NCBI GenBank assembly: GCA_018266685.1 | Contig: JAFDZY010000255.1 | Location: 1,488 to 65,487, forward strand | DNA length: 64,000 bases | Direction of reading: 5' to 3' | DNA from: Bacteroidota bacterium | Lineage (GTDB): Bacteria; Bacteroidota; Bacteroidia; Flavobacteriales_F; PHOS-HE28 | Part shown: piece after piece, positions 16,936 through 24,738 of the stretch | Numbering within the stretch: position 1 is the stretch's first letter | Layout: each line of letters starts with the position of its first letter | Program-made: the position numbers and the translations under genes | The notes under the pieces: model-generated | Told to the model about the DNA's origin: nothing | Databases searched by the model: none | Seen by the model: the letters and a program-made list of their open reading frames with translations, nothing else

Positions 16936-17319
16936 TCAACGCTCCTTCTGCGCGGCAGCCAACTGCGTCTGGAGAAAGAGCTTGTCCTTGCGCAGCTCCG
17001 CTACCACTTCCTCCAATTCCTTGATGCGTGCCTCGTACAGCTCATGCGCCTTATCCGACATCCCGTTGTAGGTGCTGTTGTTGTTCACACCCACCAGACC
17101 GTTGCAATGCTGGAAGAACATCTTCTCATCGAAGCTAAGGACTTGGGGAACGGTCATCTCGAAGAGCTTGGCCACCTGTTCCAACAAGGCCAAGGTCCAT
17201 TCCGACTCCCCGCTGATATAACGGCTCAGTTGGCGTTCGCTCATGTCCAACTGCGTGGCCATCCAGTCCTTGCTGAAGCCCTTCAAAAGCATGATCTTCT
17301 CGATGGAGCCTATTTTCAT
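16936..17319 (-). CDS. XRE-family helix-turn-helix transcriptional regulator with C-terminal coiled coil
   Basis: HTH segment KDWMATQLDMSERQLSRYISGES. Start taken at MKIGSIEKIM. It is divergent from the RiPP precursor gene. Confidence 0.8.
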   Translation of the reverse strand: MKIGSIEKIMLLKGFSKDWMATQLDMSERQLSRYISGESEWTLALLEQVAKLFEMTVPQVLSFDEKMFFQHCNGLVGVNNNSTYNGMSDKAHELYEARIKELEEVVAELRKDKLFLQTQLAAAQKER

Positions 17320-17541
17320 GGTCGCCTGATTTTTGACACAATCCGTCCGAAGTTCGCCAGCAATATACTTGCAAGATCCAAACAAACGTTGAAGGTTTGC
17401 ATTGCGCTAAGGCCAACACCCGCCCCACAGGCCCGCTCGTTGTGAAACGGCCGAACAACTGAAGGGGCAGTTGCCGGACCGAGGCGTGAGCGGATGCCGA
17501 AAAGCTCGGAGAGAGTAGGCGGGAAGTTCAACTAAATTGAC

Positions 17542-17781
17542 ATGAAGAAGAGTAAGAGCACTAAAAAGGCAGGCTTGTTCGATAAGCTACAGGATAACAG
17601 GTTCACCAACACGGGATTGGTGCATGGAGGAGCACCGGGGAGCCAAGCAACGAATGATCCCGATTATACCAATCTCGGCGGAGGCACCGATTGCGGGGAT
17701 CAAGACGATGGATCGCTGGTCACGGTTGATACGGTACCGACGAGTGCTGAGTTCGACACACCCACCAGGGGAGGACGTTAG
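17542..17781 (+). CDS. putative RiPP (graspetide-type) precursor peptide with double-glycine leader
   Basis: 79 aa. The leader MKKSKSTKKAGLFDKLQDNRFTNTGLVHGG holds all 6 Lys. The 49-aa core has 8 Thr, 3 Ser, 8 Asp, 1 Glu, 1 Cys and no Lys. It sits directly upstream of the ATP-grasp, SPASM and C39-ABC genes. Confidence 0.7.
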   Translation: MKKSKSTKKAGLFDKLQDNRFTNTGLVHGGAPGSQATNDPDYTNLGGGTDCGDQDDGSLVTVDTVPTSAEFDTPTRGGR

Positions 17782-17865
17782 ATCAGGACCCGTATAACCG
17801 TATTGGTTCAACAGCACCTCACGCATAGGATTGGTCATTGCGGACCATGAACGCCCTAAACAATG

Positions 17866-17901
17866 TGGCCCGGCACCGCCATTAATGGAAGTGCCGGGCC
17901 C
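17866..17901 (+). terminator. GC-rich hairpin downstream of the precursor gene
   Basis: tggcccggcac (17866-17876) pairs with gtgccgggcca (17891-17901) across a 14-nt loop. Confidence 0.55.
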
Positions 17902-17924
17902 ACATCAATGCCATTCCGGAACAC

Positions 17925-18818
17925 ATGTCATACCATCAATTTACTCATTTAAGATTCAATAAGAGCACATCATACAACTTGGGCTTCCGATGCATTCTAT
18001 TTTTCTCACTATCAACTGTAATACAAACCGTTCAGGCCCAATACCCGGTGTTCCACCTACTAGATAGTGCGCTGACACTCATGGAAAGTCCGCGTTATAT
18101 GGAAGGAGCGCAGATATACCGCACACTTCCGGCTGCACGGATTGATCCGCGGCGGAAATTGAGTGCGTGCCTGAGCGCTCTGAATAACCAAGACTCCAGC
18201 TTGTTCAAGACGGTATTGTTGGACCTCGCGGCGAACCATGGCTTTTTTGAGAACGGTCCAATGAAGATAAATGCCTTAAGAGAAGCATTGGATAGCGGTG
18301 GCTATGCGATCTGGTTGGCATCGAAACGGGATAGTTGCCGCATCCACTTCTTACGAACGCATATAGACAGATCGGAAGTAATGCGTCGCATGCGTCGCAT
18401 ATATGAATTGGACCAAGCTCGCGCTCTTGTGGAACGGTATAGTAGTGTTGATTCCGTCACATATTCTATAGTCACGGGAATAGATCAAGAGAACTTATAT
18501 GAGATTATAGCATTGGCTCATGAATATGGATTGCCGAACGATTTTGATGACCTTTGGAATACATCAGGACTCGTTGAACTTGTACTTTTTCATTGTGGCA
18601 AGAACCCGCATGGATTTCAGCAACGTTGGGATGCCATAATGCCCTATTTGAATAAGGCATACGCAGCAGGAAAGATTGGTAGCGAATATTTGCGCATTTA
18701 CGATACAACCTTGTATATGAATGCCGGTGTGCAGTATTACGGCACACTGGAAAATGCTCCTGTCCGGGATCCCAAGGGGTTGCCCCAGCGGAGAGCGGAA
18801 CGCGGTCTGGCCCCATGA
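17925..18818 (+). CDS. hypothetical protein with N-terminal hydrophobic/signal-like segment
   Basis: 297-aa low-GC ORF whose stop overlaps the ATP-grasp start (ATGA at 18815-18818). The C-terminal half (IDQENLYEIIALAHEYGLP...LRIYDTTLYMNAGVQYYGT) reminds me of the DUF6624 pattern; unverified. Confidence 0.6.
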   Translation: MSYHQFTHLRFNKSTSYNLGFRCILFFSLSTVIQTVQAQYPVFHLLDSALTLMESPRYMEGAQIYRTLPAARIDPRRKLSACLSALNNQDSSLFKTVLLDLAANHGFFENGPMKINALREALDSGGYAIWLASKRDSCRIHFLRTHIDRSEVMRRMRRIYELDQARALVERYSSVDSVTYSIVTGIDQENLYEIIALAHEYGLPNDFDDLWNTSGLVELVLFHCGKNPHGFQQRWDAIMPYLNKAYAAGKIGSEYLRIYDTTLYMNAGVQYYGTLENAPVRDPKGLPQRRAERGLAP

Positions 18819-19813
18819 TTGTGATTGTTTCAAACAATGATGATCAATCGACAAATGAAGTCATTGATTGGCTGTATCATTACGGCGTGGAATTTGTTCG
18901 GATCAATGAAGGCGACTTAGTCGCTTCATACTCCGTATCGCTTTCTATTGAGGGCTTGGTTTATGACTTCAAAATTCCATCGTTGGACATACATTTCAAA
19001 CCGCCACTAACGATTTGGTATAGACGAGGCGGGTTCTCGACCGGACGCTGGACCCCTCCACTATTGGAACCGATGAGCAGGAAGGAACAGCAATCCCTTC
19101 AAGATCAGGTTATGTGGGAATGGAAGACTGCCGAACATGCACTCACATCCACAGTATTCAACGGTATGCTCAACAGCCCGTTGGACAACGGAATCAACAA
19201 GTTCCTCGTGCTTAAAAGCGCGCATGCCGTTGGCTTGGACATACCGGAGACATTAATCACCACCAATCGTCATGAGGTGGAAGCGTTCAAACGCAAGCAC
19301 GGCCGGATTATAACAAAGAACCTTGCGCCAGGTGTGTTTGTCGAGGTCAAGAATGCGGCCTACATCGGGTTCACTGAAGAATGCTCGTGGCGGTTCATTC
19401 GTTCTCTTCCAAGAATCTTTCCGCCATCACTGTTTCAACGGATGGTGCCGAAGTGGATCGAGTTGCGCGTATTCTACTTGGATGGCACGTGCTACGCTTC
19501 GGCAATATTCAGCCAGCAAGACCGTACCACAAAGGTCGACTTCCGAAACTATAATCATGCACGTCCCAACCGAACACCACCATTCAAAATGGATGAAAAC
19601 GTACAAAGTCGTTTGCGAAATTTAATGGCCCTCCTGGGCTTACGCTCTGGATCGATAGATATGATTGTAACGCCTGCAGGGCAGTATCTTTTTCTGGAAG
19701 TGAATCCCGTCGGGCAGTTTAAGCAGGTGTCTCAACCCTGCAATTTCCGCTTGGAGCAAAAGATAGCACAACAACTGATAGAACAAAATGGATCGAATAG
19801 AACGCATCAATAA
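18815..19813 (+). CDS. ATP-grasp peptide maturase (microviridin MvdD/RimK-like; grasp-with-spasm type)
   Basis: N-terminus MIVIVSNNDDQSTNEVIDWL, NK..VLKSAHAVGLDIPETLIT, ELRVFYLDGTCYASAIFSQ...VDFRNY and YLFLEVNPVGQF match the peptide-modifying ATP-grasp pattern as I recall it. Confidence 0.85.
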   Translation: MIVIVSNNDDQSTNEVIDWLYHYGVEFVRINEGDLVASYSVSLSIEGLVYDFKIPSLDIHFKPPLTIWYRRGGFSTGRWTPPLLEPMSRKEQQSLQDQVMWEWKTAEHALTSTVFNGMLNSPLDNGINKFLVLKSAHAVGLDIPETLITTNRHEVEAFKRKHGRIITKNLAPGVFVEVKNAAYIGFTEECSWRFIRSLPRIFPPSLFQRMVPKWIELRVFYLDGTCYASAIFSQQDRTTKVDFRNYNHARPNRTPPFKMDENVQSRLRNLMALLGLRSGSIDMIVTPAGQYLFLEVNPVGQFKQVSQPCNFRLEQKIAQQLIEQNGSNRTHQ

Positions 19814-19973
19814 GCTTATAAAGAGCTGTGATTCCTTGCCTCCGTACTTTAGGATGAGCCACTTTACATCACGTGTACCGTTGGACCCGTCCACGTCCCA
19901 AGCATCGCTACGGCACAGGTCTACAAATTACAGATACCGCCCTGAAGTAAAACCTCCAGTTGTGCGCTGAACG

Positions 19974-21065
19974 ATGCAGATCTTTAAATTGCACGAGCAA
20001 GTGCGATTGCATAAAGGCCAATTGCGTGGTGTGGCCTATGATTTGCAACGCCAAGACTATTGGTTCCTGCCTTTGGGTGTGATTAATGCAATCGTGGAAT
20101 TGGAGGGCAAGCCAATAGAGAAGCTGCACGAACGACTCAGGCGCCCGAGCATGCCTCAGGGTGAATGGGTTGATTGCCTGATAAGTAGGGAAGTCATTTT
20201 TCCTTTGCCGCACGGCTTCCTCAAAAATTTCCCTGCACTTGATCTCACCTATGCCAAGCCTGGAAAGATTAGCACGGCTGTGGTGCCTTTGCCATATATC
20301 GACCACTCCATCGTTAAAGTCTTGGAGCGCGCAGGGTGCCATCATTTGGCGGTGGAAATAACTGCTGAAGAAACAAGCGGCTTAAATGCATTAGGGCCCG
20401 TTCTGGAAGGCACATCAATCAACTCTGTTTCTCTTCATTTCTCCTATTCGGCAGAATTGGATGCCAAGTTGGTGTGTTTGCTTAAAGAGCCCATCCACGC
20501 CAAGGTAAAGCAGGTGTACATACACTCTGCGCCTGATACTACCGTGAAGAAGAATCAAGGTATCGCATTGCACTACAATACGGCCATAACGAAGGAAGGC
20601 TACTTCCGTCCGAGTCTCGTATTGCATCAGGATACTTATTTGGAAGCCCTGACTTGGAATGTATATTTCAATCGAAAGATCTTCTTGACCCGTAATGGAA
20701 GTGTCACGATTGGTGATGGCGAAGAAATGCCGCTGGGCCATGGTAAACAGCGCATGCATGACCTTCAGGTGTTCCTTGATGGATTAGGCACACCTGCACT
20801 CTGGTCTTCGCGTAAGGACGAAATATCCGTTTGTGACGATTGCGAGCTGCGATATATGTGCATTGATCCTCGTGTGCCGGTCCAGCGTAAAGACGGTTCA
20901 TATTACCACAACTCGGAATGCAGCTACAATCCATTCATTGCGAAGTGGAGTGACGAAGCAGGCTTTGCGCCTCTTGCGGAATGCGGTGTGGTGAGCAATG
21001 CCGAAGGCTTTACCATTGATCACGAGCGCATTGCCGCCATCAATGCGGAACTCTGGGGGGAATGA
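19974..21065 (+). CDS. SPASM-domain peptide maturase lacking a radical-SAM cluster motif
   Basis: C-terminal Cys cluster SVCDDCELRYMCID...NSECSYNPF (C-x2-C-x5-C...C). No CxxxCxxC anywhere in the 363 aa. Its stop overlaps the start of the C39 ABC exporter. Confidence 0.75.
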   Translation: MQIFKLHEQVRLHKGQLRGVAYDLQRQDYWFLPLGVINAIVELEGKPIEKLHERLRRPSMPQGEWVDCLISREVIFPLPHGFLKNFPALDLTYAKPGKISTAVVPLPYIDHSIVKVLERAGCHHLAVEITAEETSGLNALGPVLEGTSINSVSLHFSYSAELDAKLVCLLKEPIHAKVKQVYIHSAPDTTVKKNQGIALHYNTAITKEGYFRPSLVLHQDTYLEALTWNVYFNRKIFLTRNGSVTIGDGEEMPLGHGKQRMHDLQVFLDGLGTPALWSSRKDEISVCDDCELRYMCIDPRVPVQRKDGSYYHNSECSYNPFIAKWSDEAGFAPLAECGVVSNAEGFTIDHERIAAINAELWGE

Positions 21066-23320
21066 GCTTCCCCTTCTACCAGCAGCCCGACCACATGGAC
21101 TGCGGGCCCACTTGCCTGCGCATAGTGGCCAAGTACCATGGAAGGTCGGTAAGCCTGCCCAAACTGCGGGCCTTTAGCGAGACCACCCGCACGGGGAGCA
21201 ACCTGCAGAACATTGCGCAAGCCGCCGAGGCCATCGGCTTTCGTACATTAGGGGTAAAGGTCTCCTTGCAAAAAATCTTGGATGAGCAGCCGTTGCCCTG
21301 CATTTTGCATTGGAACAGCAACCACTTTGTGGTGTTGTACAAAGCCAAGCCCAGCAAAGGCAAACTGAAGTTGCACGTGGCCGATCCCGGCCACGGCCTG
21401 CTCACCTACACCGAGCGGGAATTTCTGGACAGGTGGATCGGTGCGAACAGCCACCGGGATACCCAGGAAGGCATTGCGCTGCTGCTGGAACCCAGCCCTC
21501 GGCTGATAGAGCAGGAAGACGACGACAGCGAGCAGCAGAACAAGCAAGGTTTCCGCTTCCTGTTCCGCTACCTGCTACCACACAAGAAGTTCATTGTTCA
21601 ATTGGCCATCGGCCTGCTGGCGGGCAGCTTGATCCAATTGCTCTTCCCCTTCCTTACCCAAAGCGTGGTGGACGTGGGCATCCAGCACCGGGATGTGTCC
21701 TTCATCTGGTTGGTGCTGATCGCGCAGCTCTTCCTCTACATGGGCAGCACGGCCATCGAGCTGATCCGGGGCTGGATCCTGCTGCACCTCAGCGCCCGCA
21801 TCAACATCGCGCTGGTCTCGGATTTCTTCATCAAGCTGATGAAGCTGCCCATCGGCTTTTTCGACGTGAAGCAGACGGGCGACATTTTGCAGCGCATCAA
21901 CGACCACAAGCGCATCGAGCAGTTGCTCACCACCTCCTCGCTCAGTGTGCTGTTCTCGCTGTTCAACCTGGTGCTCTTCGGGGCGGTGCTGGCCTGGTAC
22001 AGCGGGATCATCTTCGCGGTGTTCCTCGCGGGCAGCTTGGTATACGTGGGCTGGGTATGGCTCTTCATGCAGCGCCGCCGCGACCTGGATTTTAAGCGCT
22101 TCGACCAGATGAGCGCGGAGCAGAGCAAGGTGATCGAGCTGATCGCGGGCATGCAGGAGATCAAGCTGCACAACGCCGAGCGGCAGAAGCGCTGGGGCTG
22201 GGAGGACCTGCAAGCCCGCCTGTTCAAGGTGCAAATGAAGAGCCTGGCCTTGGAGCAGACACAAAGCACGGGCAGCGGCTTTGTGAACCAGGTGAAGAAC
22301 CTCTTCATCACCATCCTCAGCGCCAAATTGGTGATCGACGGGGCCATCACCTTGGGCATGATGATGAGCATCAGCTACATCATCGGGCAGCTCAACAGCC
22401 CCATCCAGCAGTTGATCGGCTTTATGTACACCACCCAGGATGCCAAGATCGCGCTGGAACGCCTGAGCGAGGTGCACGGCCGGGCGGATGAGGAGAGCCC
22501 AGCGTCCAACGCAGGGTCCGCTTCGCGTGACCCTGCGGGGACTTTAATACACGACATACCGCCGGACAGCGACCTCGTGCTGAAGGGCGTGGACTTTCGC
22601 TACCCCGGCAGCCCCGAGCCGGTGCTGAAGCAACTGGATCTGAAGATACCCGCGCGGAAGGTCACGGCGATTGTGGGGAGCAGCGGCAGCGGCAAGACCA
22701 CGCTGATGAAACTGCTGCTGAAGTTCTACCCGCCGGACAGCGGCCAACTGCTGTACGGCAGCACGCCGCTGGAGCAGATCGGCCACCATGCCTGGCGCGC
22801 CCATTGCGGCACGGTGATGCAGGAGGGCTTCATCTTCAACGACACGGTGGCCAACAACATCGCTATCGGGCAGGAGGATGTGGACCGCGAGCGCCTCATG
22901 CATGCCGCGCGGGTGGCGAACATTTTGGACTTCATTGAGGAACTGCCCTTGGGCTTCAACACCAAGATCGGCGGCGAGGGTTTGGGCATGAGCGCGGGGC
23001 AGAAGCAGCGGATCCTGATCGCCCGCGCGGTGTACAAGCAACCGCAGCTGCTCTTATTTGATGAGGCCACCAGCGCACTGGACGCCACCAACGAGCGCAC
23101 GATCATGGAGAACTTGGATGCGTTCCTGCAAGGCCGCACCGCCGTGGTGATCGCGCACCGCTTGAGCACGGTGAAGAACGCGGACCAGATCGTGGTACTG
23201 GATGAAGGCCGCATCGTGGAAGCGGGCAAGCATGCGGAGTTGATCGCCCAGGGCGGGATCTACTTCCGGTTGGTGCGGGACCAGTTGCAATTGGAGCAGG
23301 TGGGGGCGCCAGTCGGTTAA
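21062..23320 (+). CDS. peptidase-C39-domain ABC transporter (double-glycine bacteriocin/RiPP exporter, PCAT)
   Basis: N-terminal C39 motif QQPDHMDCGPTCL, six-TM exporter domain, Walker A GSSGSGKTT, signature MSAGQKQR and Walker B LLLFDEATSALD. Confidence 0.93.
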   Translation: MSFPFYQQPDHMDCGPTCLRIVAKYHGRSVSLPKLRAFSETTRTGSNLQNIAQAAEAIGFRTLGVKVSLQKILDEQPLPCILHWNSNHFVVLYKAKPSKGKLKLHVADPGHGLLTYTEREFLDRWIGANSHRDTQEGIALLLEPSPRLIEQEDDDSEQQNKQGFRFLFRYLLPHKKFIVQLAIGLLAGSLIQLLFPFLTQSVVDVGIQHRDVSFIWLVLIAQLFLYMGSTAIELIRGWILLHLSARINIALVSDFFIKLMKLPIGFFDVKQTGDILQRINDHKRIEQLLTTSSLSVLFSLFNLVLFGAVLAWYSGIIFAVFLAGSLVYVGWVWLFMQRRRDLDFKRFDQMSAEQSKVIELIAGMQEIKLHNAERQKRWGWEDLQARLFKVQMKSLALEQTQSTGSGFVNQVKNLFITILSAKLVIDGAITLGMMMSISYIIGQLNSPIQQLIGFMYTTQDAKIALERLSEVHGRADEESPASNAGSASRDPAGTLIHDIPPDSDLVLKGVDFRYPGSPEPVLKQLDLKIPARKVTAIVGSSGSGKTTLMKLLLKFYPPDSGQLLYGSTPLEQIGHHAWRAHCGTVMQEGFIFNDTVANNIAIGQEDVDRERLMHAARVANILDFIEELPLGFNTKIGGEGLGMSAGQKQRILIARAVYKQPQLLLFDEATSALDATNERTIMENLDAFLQGRTAVVIAHRLSTVKNADQIVVLDEGRIVEAGKHAELIAQGGIYFRLVRDQLQLEQVGAPVG

Positions 23321-23463
23321 CCACGGATAGACACGGATGCACACGGAAAACTCTATATGGCCGGATGCCTGAGCATGAAATCCATAGCTCAGCCTCAGGG
23401 TCCGCTTCACACCTTCGCGAAGACGCTTCGGCGCACAAAGCGCGAGACCCTGCGGGAGTTCTG

Positions 23464-24738
23464 ATGGTCATGGCCGAACTGCGCAGCGAGCGCGTGCAGG
23501 AGATCATGGGGCATGTGCCCACGTGGACGATCCGCTACGGCATCACCGTGATCTTCAGCGCCATCGTGCTGCTGTTGCTGTTGGCATGGATGATCCGCTA
23601 CCCGGACGTGGTGACGGCACCCGGCACGTTGACCAGCACGGACCCGCCGCGCAATGCCGTTGCCCGCAGCGAGGGGAAGCTGGTGCGCATCGCGGTGGCC
23701 GAAGGCGATACCGTGGCGGCGGGCGATGCCTTGGCGGTGATCGAAAGCACGGCCAACCCTGCGGCCATGGACAGCATGGCCGCACTGCTGCCGGCGTTGC
23801 AACAGGCGTTGGTTTCCGGTGCGGAACAATTCCCCGTGCTTGGGAATTTGGACGTTGGCGAAGGGCGCACCGAGCTGGCCACCTTGCGCACGGCGCTCGC
23901 GGAAATGCAAGCGTGGCGCACGGACGCGTACCGCGCCCAACGCAATGCGGGCCTGCGAGAAAAGATCGCCATGTACCGCAAGCTGATCGGCTCCACGCAA
24001 AACCAGTTGAGTTGGACGTACAAGAAGCAAGCGAACTACGTGGCGGAGGCAAAGGTGGACAGCCTGTTGGCCAACAAGGGCGTGATCGCCACCACGGAGC
24101 TGCGCCAAAAGCAGAACGCCTTCCTGGACCAGCAAGTGGGCGTGGCCAACATGGAGCATGGCTTGCAACAATACCGGTTGGCCCTGCTGGAAACGGAAAC
24201 GCAATTGAACGATGCACTCCATGCGGATGAGAACCGGCAGCGCGAATTGGAAGAAGCGTTTCGGGGCAGCATGGAACGCCTGCGCGCATTTCTGGAAAGC
24301 TGGCGGTTGAGCCACACGTTGTCCGCACCCGTTGCCGGGCGGGTCTATTTCGCAGGTCGGCTCACCTTGAAACAATCCGTGAAAAGCGGGGACGTGCTCT
24401 TCAGCGTGGACCCGTTGGTGGCCAGCTACGTGTTCGAGGCCGCCGTGCCTTCCGCCGGTTCAGGCAAAGTACACTTGGGCCAGCAGGCGTACATCCAGCT
24501 TGAGGGCTTCCCCTCGAATGAGTTCGGCAAATTGATCGGCACGGTGCGTTCCATGTCGTCCATGCCGCATGAGGGTAGCTACCGCGTGGTGGTGGAATTG
24601 CCGGAAGGGCTGCGCACATCGTTCCACCGCACGTTGAAGTACCATCCGGAAATGAAGGGATCGGTGGAAGTGGTGGCCCGGGAACGCTCGGTGCTGGGAA
24701 GGATCTTTGACAAGGTGCGGGGGGCGGTGGAGCGGTGA
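23464..24738 (+). CDS. HlyD-family secretion (membrane-fusion) protein
   Basis: N-terminal TM, biotinyl-lipoyl-like GDTVAAGDALAVIES, long coiled coil and a C-terminal beta-barrel. The start is moved past a palindromic repeat that occupies the track N-terminus. Confidence 0.85.
   Translation: MVMAELRSERVQEIMGHVPTWTIRYGITVIFSAIVLLLLLAWMIRYPDVVTAPGTLTSTDPPRNAVARSEGKLVRIAVAEGDTVAAGDALAVIESTANPAAMDSMAALLPALQQALVSGAEQFPVLGNLDVGEGRTELATLRTALAEMQAWRTDAYRAQRNAGLREKIAMYRKLIGSTQNQLSWTYKKQANYVAEAKVDSLLANKGVIATTELRQKQNAFLDQQVGVANMEHGLQQYRLALLETETQLNDALHADENRQRELEEAFRGSMERLRAFLESWRLSHTLSAPVAGRVYFAGRLTLKQSVKSGDVLFSVDPLVASYVFEAAVPSAGSGKVHLGQQAYIQLEGFPSNEFGKLIGTVRSMSSMPHEGSYRVVVELPEGLRTSFHRTLKYHPEMKGSVEVVARERSVLGRIFDKVRGAVER

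What the first reader, a model, noticed from the sequence alone, without database searches (positions are those of the whole stretch)
17542..17781. Precursor peptide composition fits ester-only macrocyclisation: core has 11 Ser/Thr, 9 Asp/Glu, 1 Cys and no Lys
Seen: the leader MKKSKSTKKAGLFDKLQDNRFTNTGLVHGG (30 aa) contains every Lys. The 49-aa core is APGSQATNDPDYTNLGGGTDCGDQDDGSLVTVDTVPTSAEFDTPTRGGR, with 8 Thr, 3 Ser, 8 Asp, 1 Glu and a single Cys. A second LGGG lies inside the core, and the peptide ends in RGGR. A GC-rich hairpin (17866-17901) follows the gene.

Inference: only Thr/Ser-to-Asp/Glu esters (no lactams) are possible. The lone Cys could be a target for the SPASM partner. The internal GGG could be an alternative processing site. 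I could not match the core to any ring motif I remember, such as the microviridin TxKYPSD.
Basis: partly seen in the sequence, partly recalled or inferred. Interest (0 to 1): 0.7.

Follow-up and report, generated by a model that had tools for sequence, protein, structure and literature searches.

The report
Graspetide precursor in grasp-with-spasm cluster
The small gene is a genuine, conserved precursor peptide of a Bacteroidota "grasp-with-spasm" peptide-cyclising gene cluster, a type already catalogued but never tested in the lab; the new detail is that its "SPASM" partner lacks the cysteines needed for radical chemistry.

Summary
The 79-aa ORF, its residue counts and the downstream hairpin are all as described. 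The ORF heads an operon: secreted 297-aa protein, ATP-grasp ligase (TIGR04192, above cutoff), small LPL-like protein, SPASM-domain protein (TIGR04193-like), C39-peptidase ABC exporter and HlyD adaptor.

I recovered nine further distinct homologues of the peptide next to homologous ATP-grasp genes. Gly29-Gly30 is invariant. In the core, Ser/Thr34, Thr43, Thr67, Asp39, Asp50, Asp63, Asp72, Gly47 and Cys51 are invariant. No core column has a conserved Lys. dN/dS to the nearest homologue is 0.19. Precursor status, the GG cleavage site and a lactone-only ring chemistry are therefore supported.

Two inferences are not supported:
- The internal LGGG and the RGGR tail are not conserved.
- The SPASM partner has no CxxxCxxC radical-SAM motif in any of 39 homologues. 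It looks like an RRE plus a degenerate radical-SAM fold plus one auxiliary Fe-S site, so classical thioether formation at the Cys is unlikely.

The system matches Makarova's "Branch 5" and the Mitchell lab's "Group 14" (1,643 clusters), which I found described only bioinformatically. This is a new precursor family within a known kind, of moderate interest.

The parts
16936..17385 (-). XRE-family helix-turn-helix regulator, divergently transcribed from the precursor gene. The likely true start is the Met at residue 23, about 17319.
   Evidence: Pfam HTH_26/HTH_3. Homologues sit next to the precursor gene in L001/L025, L018 (two copies, one beside each precursor) and L019.
17542..17631 (+). Leader peptide (residues 1-30) of the precursor. 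It has a Lys-rich N-terminus, an invariant Leu12-Phe13, hydrophobic positions 16, 21 and 27, and an invariant Gly29-Gly30 double-glycine site.
   Evidence: 10-member alignment.
17632..17781 (+). Core peptide (residues 31-79) plus stop codon. Invariant residues are S/T34, D39, T43, G47, D50, C51, D63, T67 and D72. Two invariant (S/T)-x4-D units occur at 34-39 and 67-72.
   Evidence: dN/dS is 0.19 versus L021. It is the only copy in the window.
17863..17905 (+). G+C-rich stem-loop between the precursor gene and the enzyme genes, with no T-tract. It is probably an attenuator or mRNA-stabilising hairpin that sets the precursor:enzyme ratio (inferred).
   Evidence: z = -5.3. It is conserved in L021 with compensatory changes. 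Independent strong stems occupy the same position in L012, L018 and L019.
17925..18818 (+). 297-aa protein of unknown function with an N-terminal signal-like hydrophobic segment, predicted all-helical. It co-occurs only with this precursor family.
   Evidence: No Pfam, NCBIfam, PADLOC or PDB hit. Homologues occur only in loci that carry this precursor family. The AF2 model is poor (pLDDT 53).
18815..19813 (+). ATP-grasp graspetide synthetase.
   Evidence: TIGR04192 GRASP_w_spasm at 265 bits, above the 230 cutoff. PDB sequence hits to AMdnB, MdnC, MdnB and CdnC at E 1e-26 to 3e-19.
19788..19970 (+). 60-aa LPL-family-like small protein immediately upstream of the SPASM gene.
   Evidence: A conserved ORF occupies the same position in L001, L002, L003, L004, L005, L009 and L010, with LP(P)Y and YRYRP/YYKP motifs. 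The motif matches the published LPL alignment.
19974..21065 (+). SPASM-domain partner: N-terminal RRE-like domain, a radical-SAM-like central domain without the CxxxCxxC triad, and a C-terminal CxxCx5C...C Fe-S site.
   Evidence: TIGR04193 at 105.5 bits, below the 175 cutoff, and the only hit. Cys analysis. AF2 pLDDT 91. Foldseek best matches are SuiB and CteB, plus lasso B1 RRE proteins for the N-terminal domain.
21062..23320 (+). C39-peptidase-domain ABC exporter, the predicted leader cleavage and export step.
   Evidence: Pfam Peptidase_C39 + ABC_membrane + ABC_tran. Catalytic signature Q..DC14GP and H88FVV is present.
23365..24738 (+). HlyD-family periplasmic adaptor.
   Evidence: Pfam HlyD_3 and TIGR01843.

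Best explanation
The ORF at 17542-17781 is the precursor (A) gene of a Bacteroidota grasp-with-spasm graspetide cluster (Makarova Branch 5, Mitchell-lab Group 14).

**Proposed pathway**
1. The 79-aa prepeptide is recognised through its leader, which carries an invariant Leu-Phe motif and hydrophobic periodicity.
2. The ATP-grasp ligase activates conserved Asp side chains as acyl phosphates. Conserved Thr/Ser hydroxyls capture them to give several side-chain macrolactones. The best candidates are the two invariant (S/T)-x4-D units (34-39 and 67-72), plus Thr43 with Asp50.
3. No lactam is expected, because no core Lys is conserved.
4. The C39 domain of the ABC exporter cuts after Gly30, and the product is exported through the ABC/HlyD pair.
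5. The stem-loop after the gene probably keeps precursor mRNA in excess over enzyme mRNA.
6. The SPASM-domain protein is not a classical radical-SAM enzyme. It most likely acts as an Fe-S-containing, RRE-bearing partner that binds the leader, possibly together with the LPL protein. It may carry out a non-canonical step at or near the invariant Cys51.

**Shown here:** gene identities, conservation pattern, coding selection, catalytic motifs of C39, and absence of the radical-SAM triad.
**Inferred:** the ring chemistry and ring pairs, the cleavage site, the hairpin function and the partner's role.
For: - ORF and composition.
- Operon content. The ATP-grasp exceeds the TIGR04192 cutoff and hits solved graspetide synthetases.
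- Ten distinct homologous precursors lie upstream of homologous ATP-grasp genes. G29-G30, S/T34, D39, T43, G47, D50, C51, D63, T67 and D72 are invariant, and no Lys is conserved.
- dN/dS is 0.19.
- The C39 catalytic Cys and His are present.
- The hairpin is conserved with compensatory changes.
- Partner protein: 0 of 39 homologues have CxxxCxxC, while C287/C290/C296/C316 are invariant. A high-confidence model matches SuiB/CteB and, for the N-terminal domain, RRE proteins.
- Literature: Branch 5 / Group 14 have the same gene set, and branch-5 leaders lack the motif that binds the ATP-grasp directly. Partner-dependent graspetide synthetases now have precedent.
Against: - There is no chemical evidence. 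Ring number, ring pairs and even the ester nature are inferred from composition and family membership.
- The SPASM partner scores below the TIGR04193 cutoff (105.5 vs 175).
- Five of ten family members end in Lys, so a C-terminal lactam in those members cannot be excluded.
- The invariant Cys51 has no assigned role in this model.
- The 297-aa co-varying protein is unexplained.
- Ligases act before leader removal, so leader Lys residues are not formally excluded as nucleophiles.
Confidence: 0.72

Rival explanations
1. Classical sactipeptide/ranthipeptide-like chemistry. The SPASM protein is a radical-SAM enzyme that links the sulfur of Cys51 to a carbon of another residue (thioether), on top of the lactones.
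For: Cys51 is invariant. The partner's best structural matches are the RiPP radical-SAM maturases SuiB and CteB. The literature assumes this role for the family.
Against: No CxxxCxxC triad in 0/11 locus homologues and 0/28 database homologues. No Pfam Radical_SAM or SPASM hit even at E = 10. No other candidate radical-SAM ORF in the 64-kb window. L002 has the partner but Cys-free cores.
Confidence: 0.08
2. Cys51 is itself a ring nucleophile. The ATP-grasp joins it to an activated Asp to give a thiolactone (thioester), so that four invariant Asp pair with three invariant Thr/Ser plus one Cys.
For: The numbers match: 4 invariant Asp versus 3 invariant hydroxyl residues plus 1 invariant Cys. Position 42 alternates between Tyr and Cys.
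Against: To my knowledge (not checked here) no graspetide thioester has been described. Ser58 (T/S in 9/10) and Thr37 (8/10) could serve as the fourth hydroxyl. This is pure inference from counts.
Confidence: 0.07
3. The internal LGGG is a second C39 cleavage site, so the mature product is only the C-terminal 31 residues, or two separate peptides.
For: GG occurs at this position in 5 of 10 members. Multi-GG precursors have been noted in branch 5.
Against: Only Gly47 is invariant. The other five members have T/M/L at position 46. Invariant S/T34, D39 and T43 lie upstream and would be discarded. No leader-like hydrophobic pattern precedes this site.
Confidence: 0.05
4. The peptide is an unmodified, or only disulfide-bonded, double-glycine bacteriocin-like peptide. 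The ATP-grasp acts on something else.
For: The GG leader plus C39-ABC/HlyD is also the class II bacteriocin export module.
Against: The precursor is strictly syntenic with the ATP-grasp in every locus. Its invariant residues are precisely Thr/Ser and Asp. The window peptide has one Cys, so no intramolecular disulfide is possible.
Confidence: 0.04
5. A chance ORF that is not translated.
For: No database family matches it. A word-indexed search of 5.8 billion proteins found only itself.
Against: Ten homologues show amino-acid conservation despite saturated synonymous sites, and dN/dS is 0.19. An exhaustive phmmer search finds P0038 at E = 2e-11.
Confidence: 0.01

Closest known systems
Grasp-with-spasm system (NCBIfam TIGR04192/TIGR04193) = ATP-grasp Branch 5 of Makarova et al. 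2022 (PMC8939145) = graspetide Group 14 of the Mitchell-lab surveys (PMC13097080)
   Same: - Bacteroidota host.
- ATP-grasp above the TIGR04192 cutoff.
- TIGR04193-like SPASM protein immediately downstream.
- Small LPL-like gene just upstream of the SPASM gene.
- GG-leader precursor rich in Thr/Ser/Asp with conserved Cys.
- C39-ABC and HlyD, present in about a third of Group 14 clusters.
   Different: - The precursor matches none of the known precursor models (PF14406, TIGR04139, TIGR04149).
- Its motifs are absent from the supplementary text held for both surveys, some of which was truncated in storage.
- The SPASM partner is divergent (105 bits against a 175 cutoff).
- A 297-aa secreted protein specific to this subfamily is present.
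Lactone-only graspetides such as plesiocin (group 2) and thuringinin (group 3)
   Same: A single ATP-grasp and a core with Thr/Ser and Asp/Glu but no Lys, so all rings are omega-esters. The products' ring chemistry rests on my own knowledge; the single enzyme and the plesiocin TTxxxxEE motif are cited.
   Different: - Different core motifs (TTxxxxEE; TxxTxxxExxDxD).
- No SPASM or LPL partners.
- Their leaders bind the ATP-grasp directly, through a motif that is absent in branch 5.
Microviridins / chryseoviridin (group 1)
   Same: Homologous ATP-grasp fold: MdnB, MdnC and CdnC are the best PDB sequence hits. Some come from Bacteroidota hosts.
   Different: The TxKYPSD motif and the Lys lactam are absent. 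TIGR04185/TIGR04184 scores are far below their cutoffs (126 vs 425; 118 vs 475).
SuiB (streptide) and CteB (sactipeptide) RRE-radical SAM-SPASM maturases
   Same: Best structural matches of the partner protein. The domain order is the same: RRE, barrel, C-terminal Cys-rich domain.
   Different: The partner has no radical-SAM CxxxCxxC cluster site. Only one complete auxiliary-cluster Cys set (CxxCx5C...C) is invariant. Sequence identity is 9-10%.
Partner-protein-dependent graspetide synthetases (rosaritide MirC; Carter et al. 2026, PMC13097080)
   Same: Precedent that a strictly co-occurring non-ligase protein can be required for graspetide synthetase activity.
   Different: That paper investigated clusters from other groups, associated with a PPIase and with a 2OG oxygenase. 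No relationship to the SPASM/RRE protein here has been shown.

Membership tests
Graspetide (omega-ester-containing peptide) precursor | Encoded next to a microviridin-type ATP-grasp ligase | tested here: met
   TIGR04192 at 265 bits against a 230 cutoff. PDB hits to AMdnB, MdnC, MdnB and CdnC. Synteny holds in every related locus that retains the region upstream of the ATP-grasp gene.
Graspetide (omega-ester-containing peptide) precursor | Core with conserved hydroxyl/amine donors and Asp/Glu acceptors | tested here: met
   S/T34, T43, T67, D39, D50, D63 and D72 are invariant in 10/10 members.
Graspetide (omega-ester-containing peptide) precursor | Side-chain ester/amide macrocycles actually installed (-18 Da per ring) | not testable with these tools
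   Needs co-expression and mass spectrometry.
Grasp-with-spasm / Branch 5 / Group 14 | TIGR04193 SPASM-domain protein co-encoded | tested here: inconclusive
   TIGR04193 is the only hit and is full-length (residues 4-327), but at 105.5 bits it is below the 175 cutoff. The homologue P0023 is named as this family by JGI.
Grasp-with-spasm / Branch 5 / Group 14 | Small LPL-family gene directly upstream of the SPASM gene | tested here: met
   The 60-aa ORF at 19788-19970 is conserved in position and motif. Its LPPY motif matches the published alignment.
Grasp-with-spasm / Branch 5 / Group 14 | Cluster 23 secreted/lipoprotein accessory gene | tested here: inconclusive
   The 297-aa protein has a signal-like N-terminus. 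Its motifs were not found in the held, truncated supplement.
Known Bacteroidetes precursor families PF14406, TIGR04139, TIGR04149 | Match to the family profile | tested here: not met
   No hit, even at E = 10 for Pfam and E = 0.01 for NCBIfam.
Double-glycine leader peptides processed by C39 ABC exporters | Conserved GG site plus a co-encoded C39-ABC with catalytic Cys and His | tested here: met
   G29-G30 present in 10/10 members, with hydrophobic residues at -4. C39 domain at E 9e-29 with the DC14GP and H88 signatures. Cleavage itself was not tested.
Radical SAM/SPASM peptide maturases (sactipeptide, ranthipeptide, streptide type) | CxxxCxxC [4Fe-4S]/SAM-binding triad | tested here: not met
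   Present in 0 of 11 and 0 of 28 homologues. No PF04055 or PF13186 hit.
Microviridin (group 1 graspetide) | TxKYPSD-type core with a Lys lactam; MdnB/MdnC equivalog scores | tested here: not met
   The motif is absent and there is no core Lys. TIGR04184/TIGR04185 scores are far below their cutoffs.

The most novel reading that the evidence does not exclude
The strictly co-occurring TIGR04193 protein lacks the radical-SAM cysteine triad in every member examined, yet keeps an RRE and an invariant Fe-S site. It may therefore be a new kind of RiPP maturase or obligate partner. One possibility is that it presents the leader to the ATP-grasp, since branch-5 leaders lack the usual ligase-binding motif. 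Another is that it performs non-radical, Fe-S-dependent chemistry on the invariant Asp50-Cys51-Gly52 site. In the latter case Group 14 products would carry a cross-link or modification type not yet described in graspetides.
Probability: 0.2. Interest if true: 0.75.

Novelty: new member of a known kind. Interest (0 to 1): 0.35.

Why it matters
Group 14 (grasp-with-spasm) is a large graspetide group, with 1,643 predicted clusters. I could find no member with a determined product. This locus and its nine relatives give a compact precursor family with only nine invariant core residues. That makes a clean system for ring mapping by mutagenesis and mass spectrometry. It also suits asking what a SPASM protein without a radical-SAM cluster does. 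Lactone-only graspetides are well known, and the same reading was published for this class of loci in 2022.

Tried and rejected
- **Word-indexed search of 5.8 billion proteins with the peptide:** only itself.
- **Exhaustive phmmer over 1.84 billion representatives:** only one true relative (P0038). The second hit, P0039, is a low-complexity repeat protein and was rejected as spurious. Most relatives had to be found as uncalled ORFs by synteny.
- **Pfam, NCBIfam and PADLOC scans** of the peptide, the 297-aa protein and the LPL-like ORF: nothing.
- **PDB sequence search** with the SPASM partner and the 297-aa protein: nothing meaningful.
- **Structure prediction of the 297-aa protein:** only four sequences were available, giving pLDDT 53. 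I did not run a fold search on it, because the matches would be meaningless.
- **Second precursor copy in the window:** none found by HMM scan of all six frames.
- **Canonical intrinsic terminator after the gene:** none. The hairpin lacks a T-tract.
- **Papers not held:** Haft & Basu 2011 (PMC3133131) and Ramesh et al. 2021 (PMC8688276). I could not check what those papers say about the missing radical-SAM motif or the Group 14 core motif.
- **Cluster 23 membership of the 297-aa protein:** could not be tested, because the supplement text is truncated.

Full report
**1. The observation**

- An in-frame stop at 17533-17535 makes this ATG the first possible start.
- After VHGG the core is 49 aa, with 8 Thr, 3 Ser, 8 Asp, 1 Glu, 1 Cys and no Lys. 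All six Lys are in the 30-aa leader.
- The hairpin is real. It spans 17863-17905, at -29.8 kcal/mol against -14.0 +/- 3.0 for shuffles. It has no T-tract, and no terminator-like site is called.
- The leader/core Lys split has Fisher p = 0.002. The D/E/S/T excess has p = 6e-4 against the window's own composition. Zero Lys alone is not significant (p = 0.14).

**2. What surrounds it**

| Coordinates | Gene | Evidence |
|---|---|---|
| 16936-17385 (-) | XRE-type HTH regulator, divergent; conserved beside the precursor in L001/L025, L018 and L019 | |
| 17925-18818 | 297-aa protein with a signal-like N-terminus, no family | |
| 18815-19813 | ATP-grasp, TIGR04192 at 265 bits against a 230 cutoff; nearest solved relatives AMdnB, MdnC, MdnB, CdnC | |
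| 19788-19970 | 60-aa ORF | |
| 19974-21065 | Protein whose only hit is TIGR04193 "SPASM_w_grasp", 105.5 bits, below the 175 cutoff | |
| 21062-23320 | C39-peptidase ABC exporter | |
| 23365-24738 | HlyD adaptor | |

The cluster is flanked by PBP1A and HflX, which are ordinary chromosomal genes. The host is a Bacteroidetes MAG.

**3. Is the small ORF conserved?**

Scanning genome and metagenome collections with the ATP-grasp, and tracing contigs that encode homologues of the neighbouring genes, gave 25 loci.

In ten distinct versions, a homologous small ORF lies upstream of the 297-aa homologue and the ATP-grasp: the window, L009/L010, L001/L025, L008/L017, L012, L013, L018 (two copies), L019 and L021-24.

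In the alignment (window numbering):
- **Leader:** Leu12-Phe13 and Gly29-Gly30 are invariant. Positions 16, 21 and 27 are hydrophobic.
- **Core, invariant:** S/T34, D39, T43, G47, D50, C51, D63, T67 and D72.
- **Core, 8-9 of 10:** T37, D/E41, G52, D53 and S/T58.
- **Position 42** alternates between Tyr (5), Cys (4) and Ser (1).
- **Spacing:** two (S/T)-x4-D units (34-39 and 67-72) have invariant spacing. T43 to D50 varies from x4 to x6.
- **Lys:** no core column has a conserved Lys. The maximum is 4/10, at the column of the window's Thr75, which is the last residue of those four peptides. Five members in all end in Lys.

dN/dS against L021 is 0.19, and synonymous sites are saturated in the other pairs. 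The gene is therefore real and under peptide-level selection. More distant loci (L002, L003, L005, L006) have unrelated cores behind a similar GG leader. This is the pattern reported for this class of loci.

**4.

*Lactone-only.* The family data support it: the conserved nucleophiles are hydroxyls and there is no conserved Lys. It remains an inference without mass spectrometry.

*Internal GGG as a processing site.* Not supported.
- Only Gly47 is invariant.
- GG is present in 5/10 members.
- Invariant residues lie on both sides of it.

*RGGR tail.* Unique to the window.

*Cys as a SPASM target.* The Cys is invariant, so it is important, but the partner is not a radical-SAM enzyme in the usual sense.
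- No CxxxCxxC occurs in the window protein, in 10 locus homologues or in 27 further database homologues.
- C287, C290, C296 and C316 are present in 28/28, C337 in 25/27 and C122 in 22/28.
- From my memory of the anSME structure, which I did not verify here, CxxCx5C plus a downstream Cys is the ligand set of auxiliary cluster II.
- A high-confidence model (pLDDT 91) best matches SuiB and CteB. Its first ~85 residues match the lasso-peptide B1 leader-binding (RRE) proteins.
- No other ORF of 200 aa or more in the 64-kb window has a radical-SAM triad.
- L002 keeps the partner but has Cys-free cores.

**5. Mechanism proposed**

1. Leader recognition. The partner's RRE, perhaps with the LPL protein, is a good candidate for this, because branch-5 leaders lack the motif that binds the ligase directly. 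Partner-dependent graspetide synthetases now have precedent.
2. The ATP-grasp forms several Thr/Ser-Asp lactones.
3. An undefined step may involve Cys51.
4. The C39 domain cleaves after Gly30; its catalytic Cys14 and His88 are present.
5. The product is exported through the ABC/HlyD pair.

The stem-loop after the precursor gene is conserved with compensatory changes in L021. It is replaced by independent strong stems in L012, L018 and L019. This fits an attenuator or stabiliser that sets the precursor:enzyme ratio, which is an inference.

**6. Comparison with what is known**

The gene set is that of three equivalent descriptions: the NCBIfam grasp-with-spasm system, Makarova et al.'s Branch 5 and the Mitchell-lab Group 14.
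- Branch 5: 190 loci, Bacteroidetes-specific, with SPASM, an LPL gene upstream of SPASM, cluster 23, diverse GG precursors and conserved Cys suggested as thioether donors.
- Group 14: 1,643 clusters, with TIGR04193 in about 100%, C39-ABC in 35% and HlyD in 33%.
- The 60-aa ORF fits the published LPL alignment.
- I found no paper in the held library that reports a product for this group.
- The precursor matches none of the known precursor models. Its motifs do not occur in the supplementary text held for either survey, some of which was truncated in storage.
- The 297-aa protein co-occurs only with this precursor family.

**7. Verdict**

Two side inferences fail: internal cleavage at GGG, and classical SPASM action on the Cys.

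This is a new precursor family within an already catalogued, experimentally uncharacterised kind of system. Interest is moderate. The most interesting thread is the SPASM protein that lacks a radical-SAM cluster, together with the invariant Asp-Cys-Gly site.

Noticed in passing
window 19974-21065: The SPASM partner and all 38 homologues examined lack the radical-SAM CxxxCxxC triad, yet keep an RRE-like N-terminal domain and an invariant CxxCx5C...C site. The published surveys call this family a radical-SAM enzyme.
   Followed up: yes
window 19788-19970: A 60-aa ORF overlaps the end of the ATP-grasp gene. It is conserved in position and motifs (LPPY, YRYRP/YYKP) across related loci and fits the published LPL auxiliary family.
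   Followed up: partly
window 17925-18818: The database entry for this gene (P0040, JST38_11560) is only 205 aa, 69% of the ORF. Homologues of 253-352 aa align over most of the 297-aa reading frame, which also adds a signal-like N-terminus. The deposited start codon is probably too far downstream.
   Followed up: partly
L018 8228-8880: This related locus carries a second, divergent precursor gene downstream of HlyD (core LTAGVEIETVVTGDTESTLGGTDCGDF...). It has its own adjacent HTH regulator, which suggests precursor-regulator modules duplicate together.
   Followed up: partly
L008/L007 and L021 (all contigs of MAG JBIIYP01): One Flavobacteriales MAG carries two different clusters of this subfamily, each with a distinct precursor. 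In L021 the ATP-grasp-position gene is called at only 268 aa.
   Followed up: no
L002 117-281 and 1775-2008: This locus has Cys-free cores, and its SPASM partner is the only one of 11 with Ile instead of Cys at the position of C122. This is a single case, so it may be coincidence.
   Followed up: no
window 17863-17905 vs L021 3937-3982: The stem-loop after the precursor gene is conserved at the sequence level between loci whose coding regions have saturated synonymous sites. It shows paired changes on both arms and a shared CATCAAT just 3' of the stem.
   Followed up: partly
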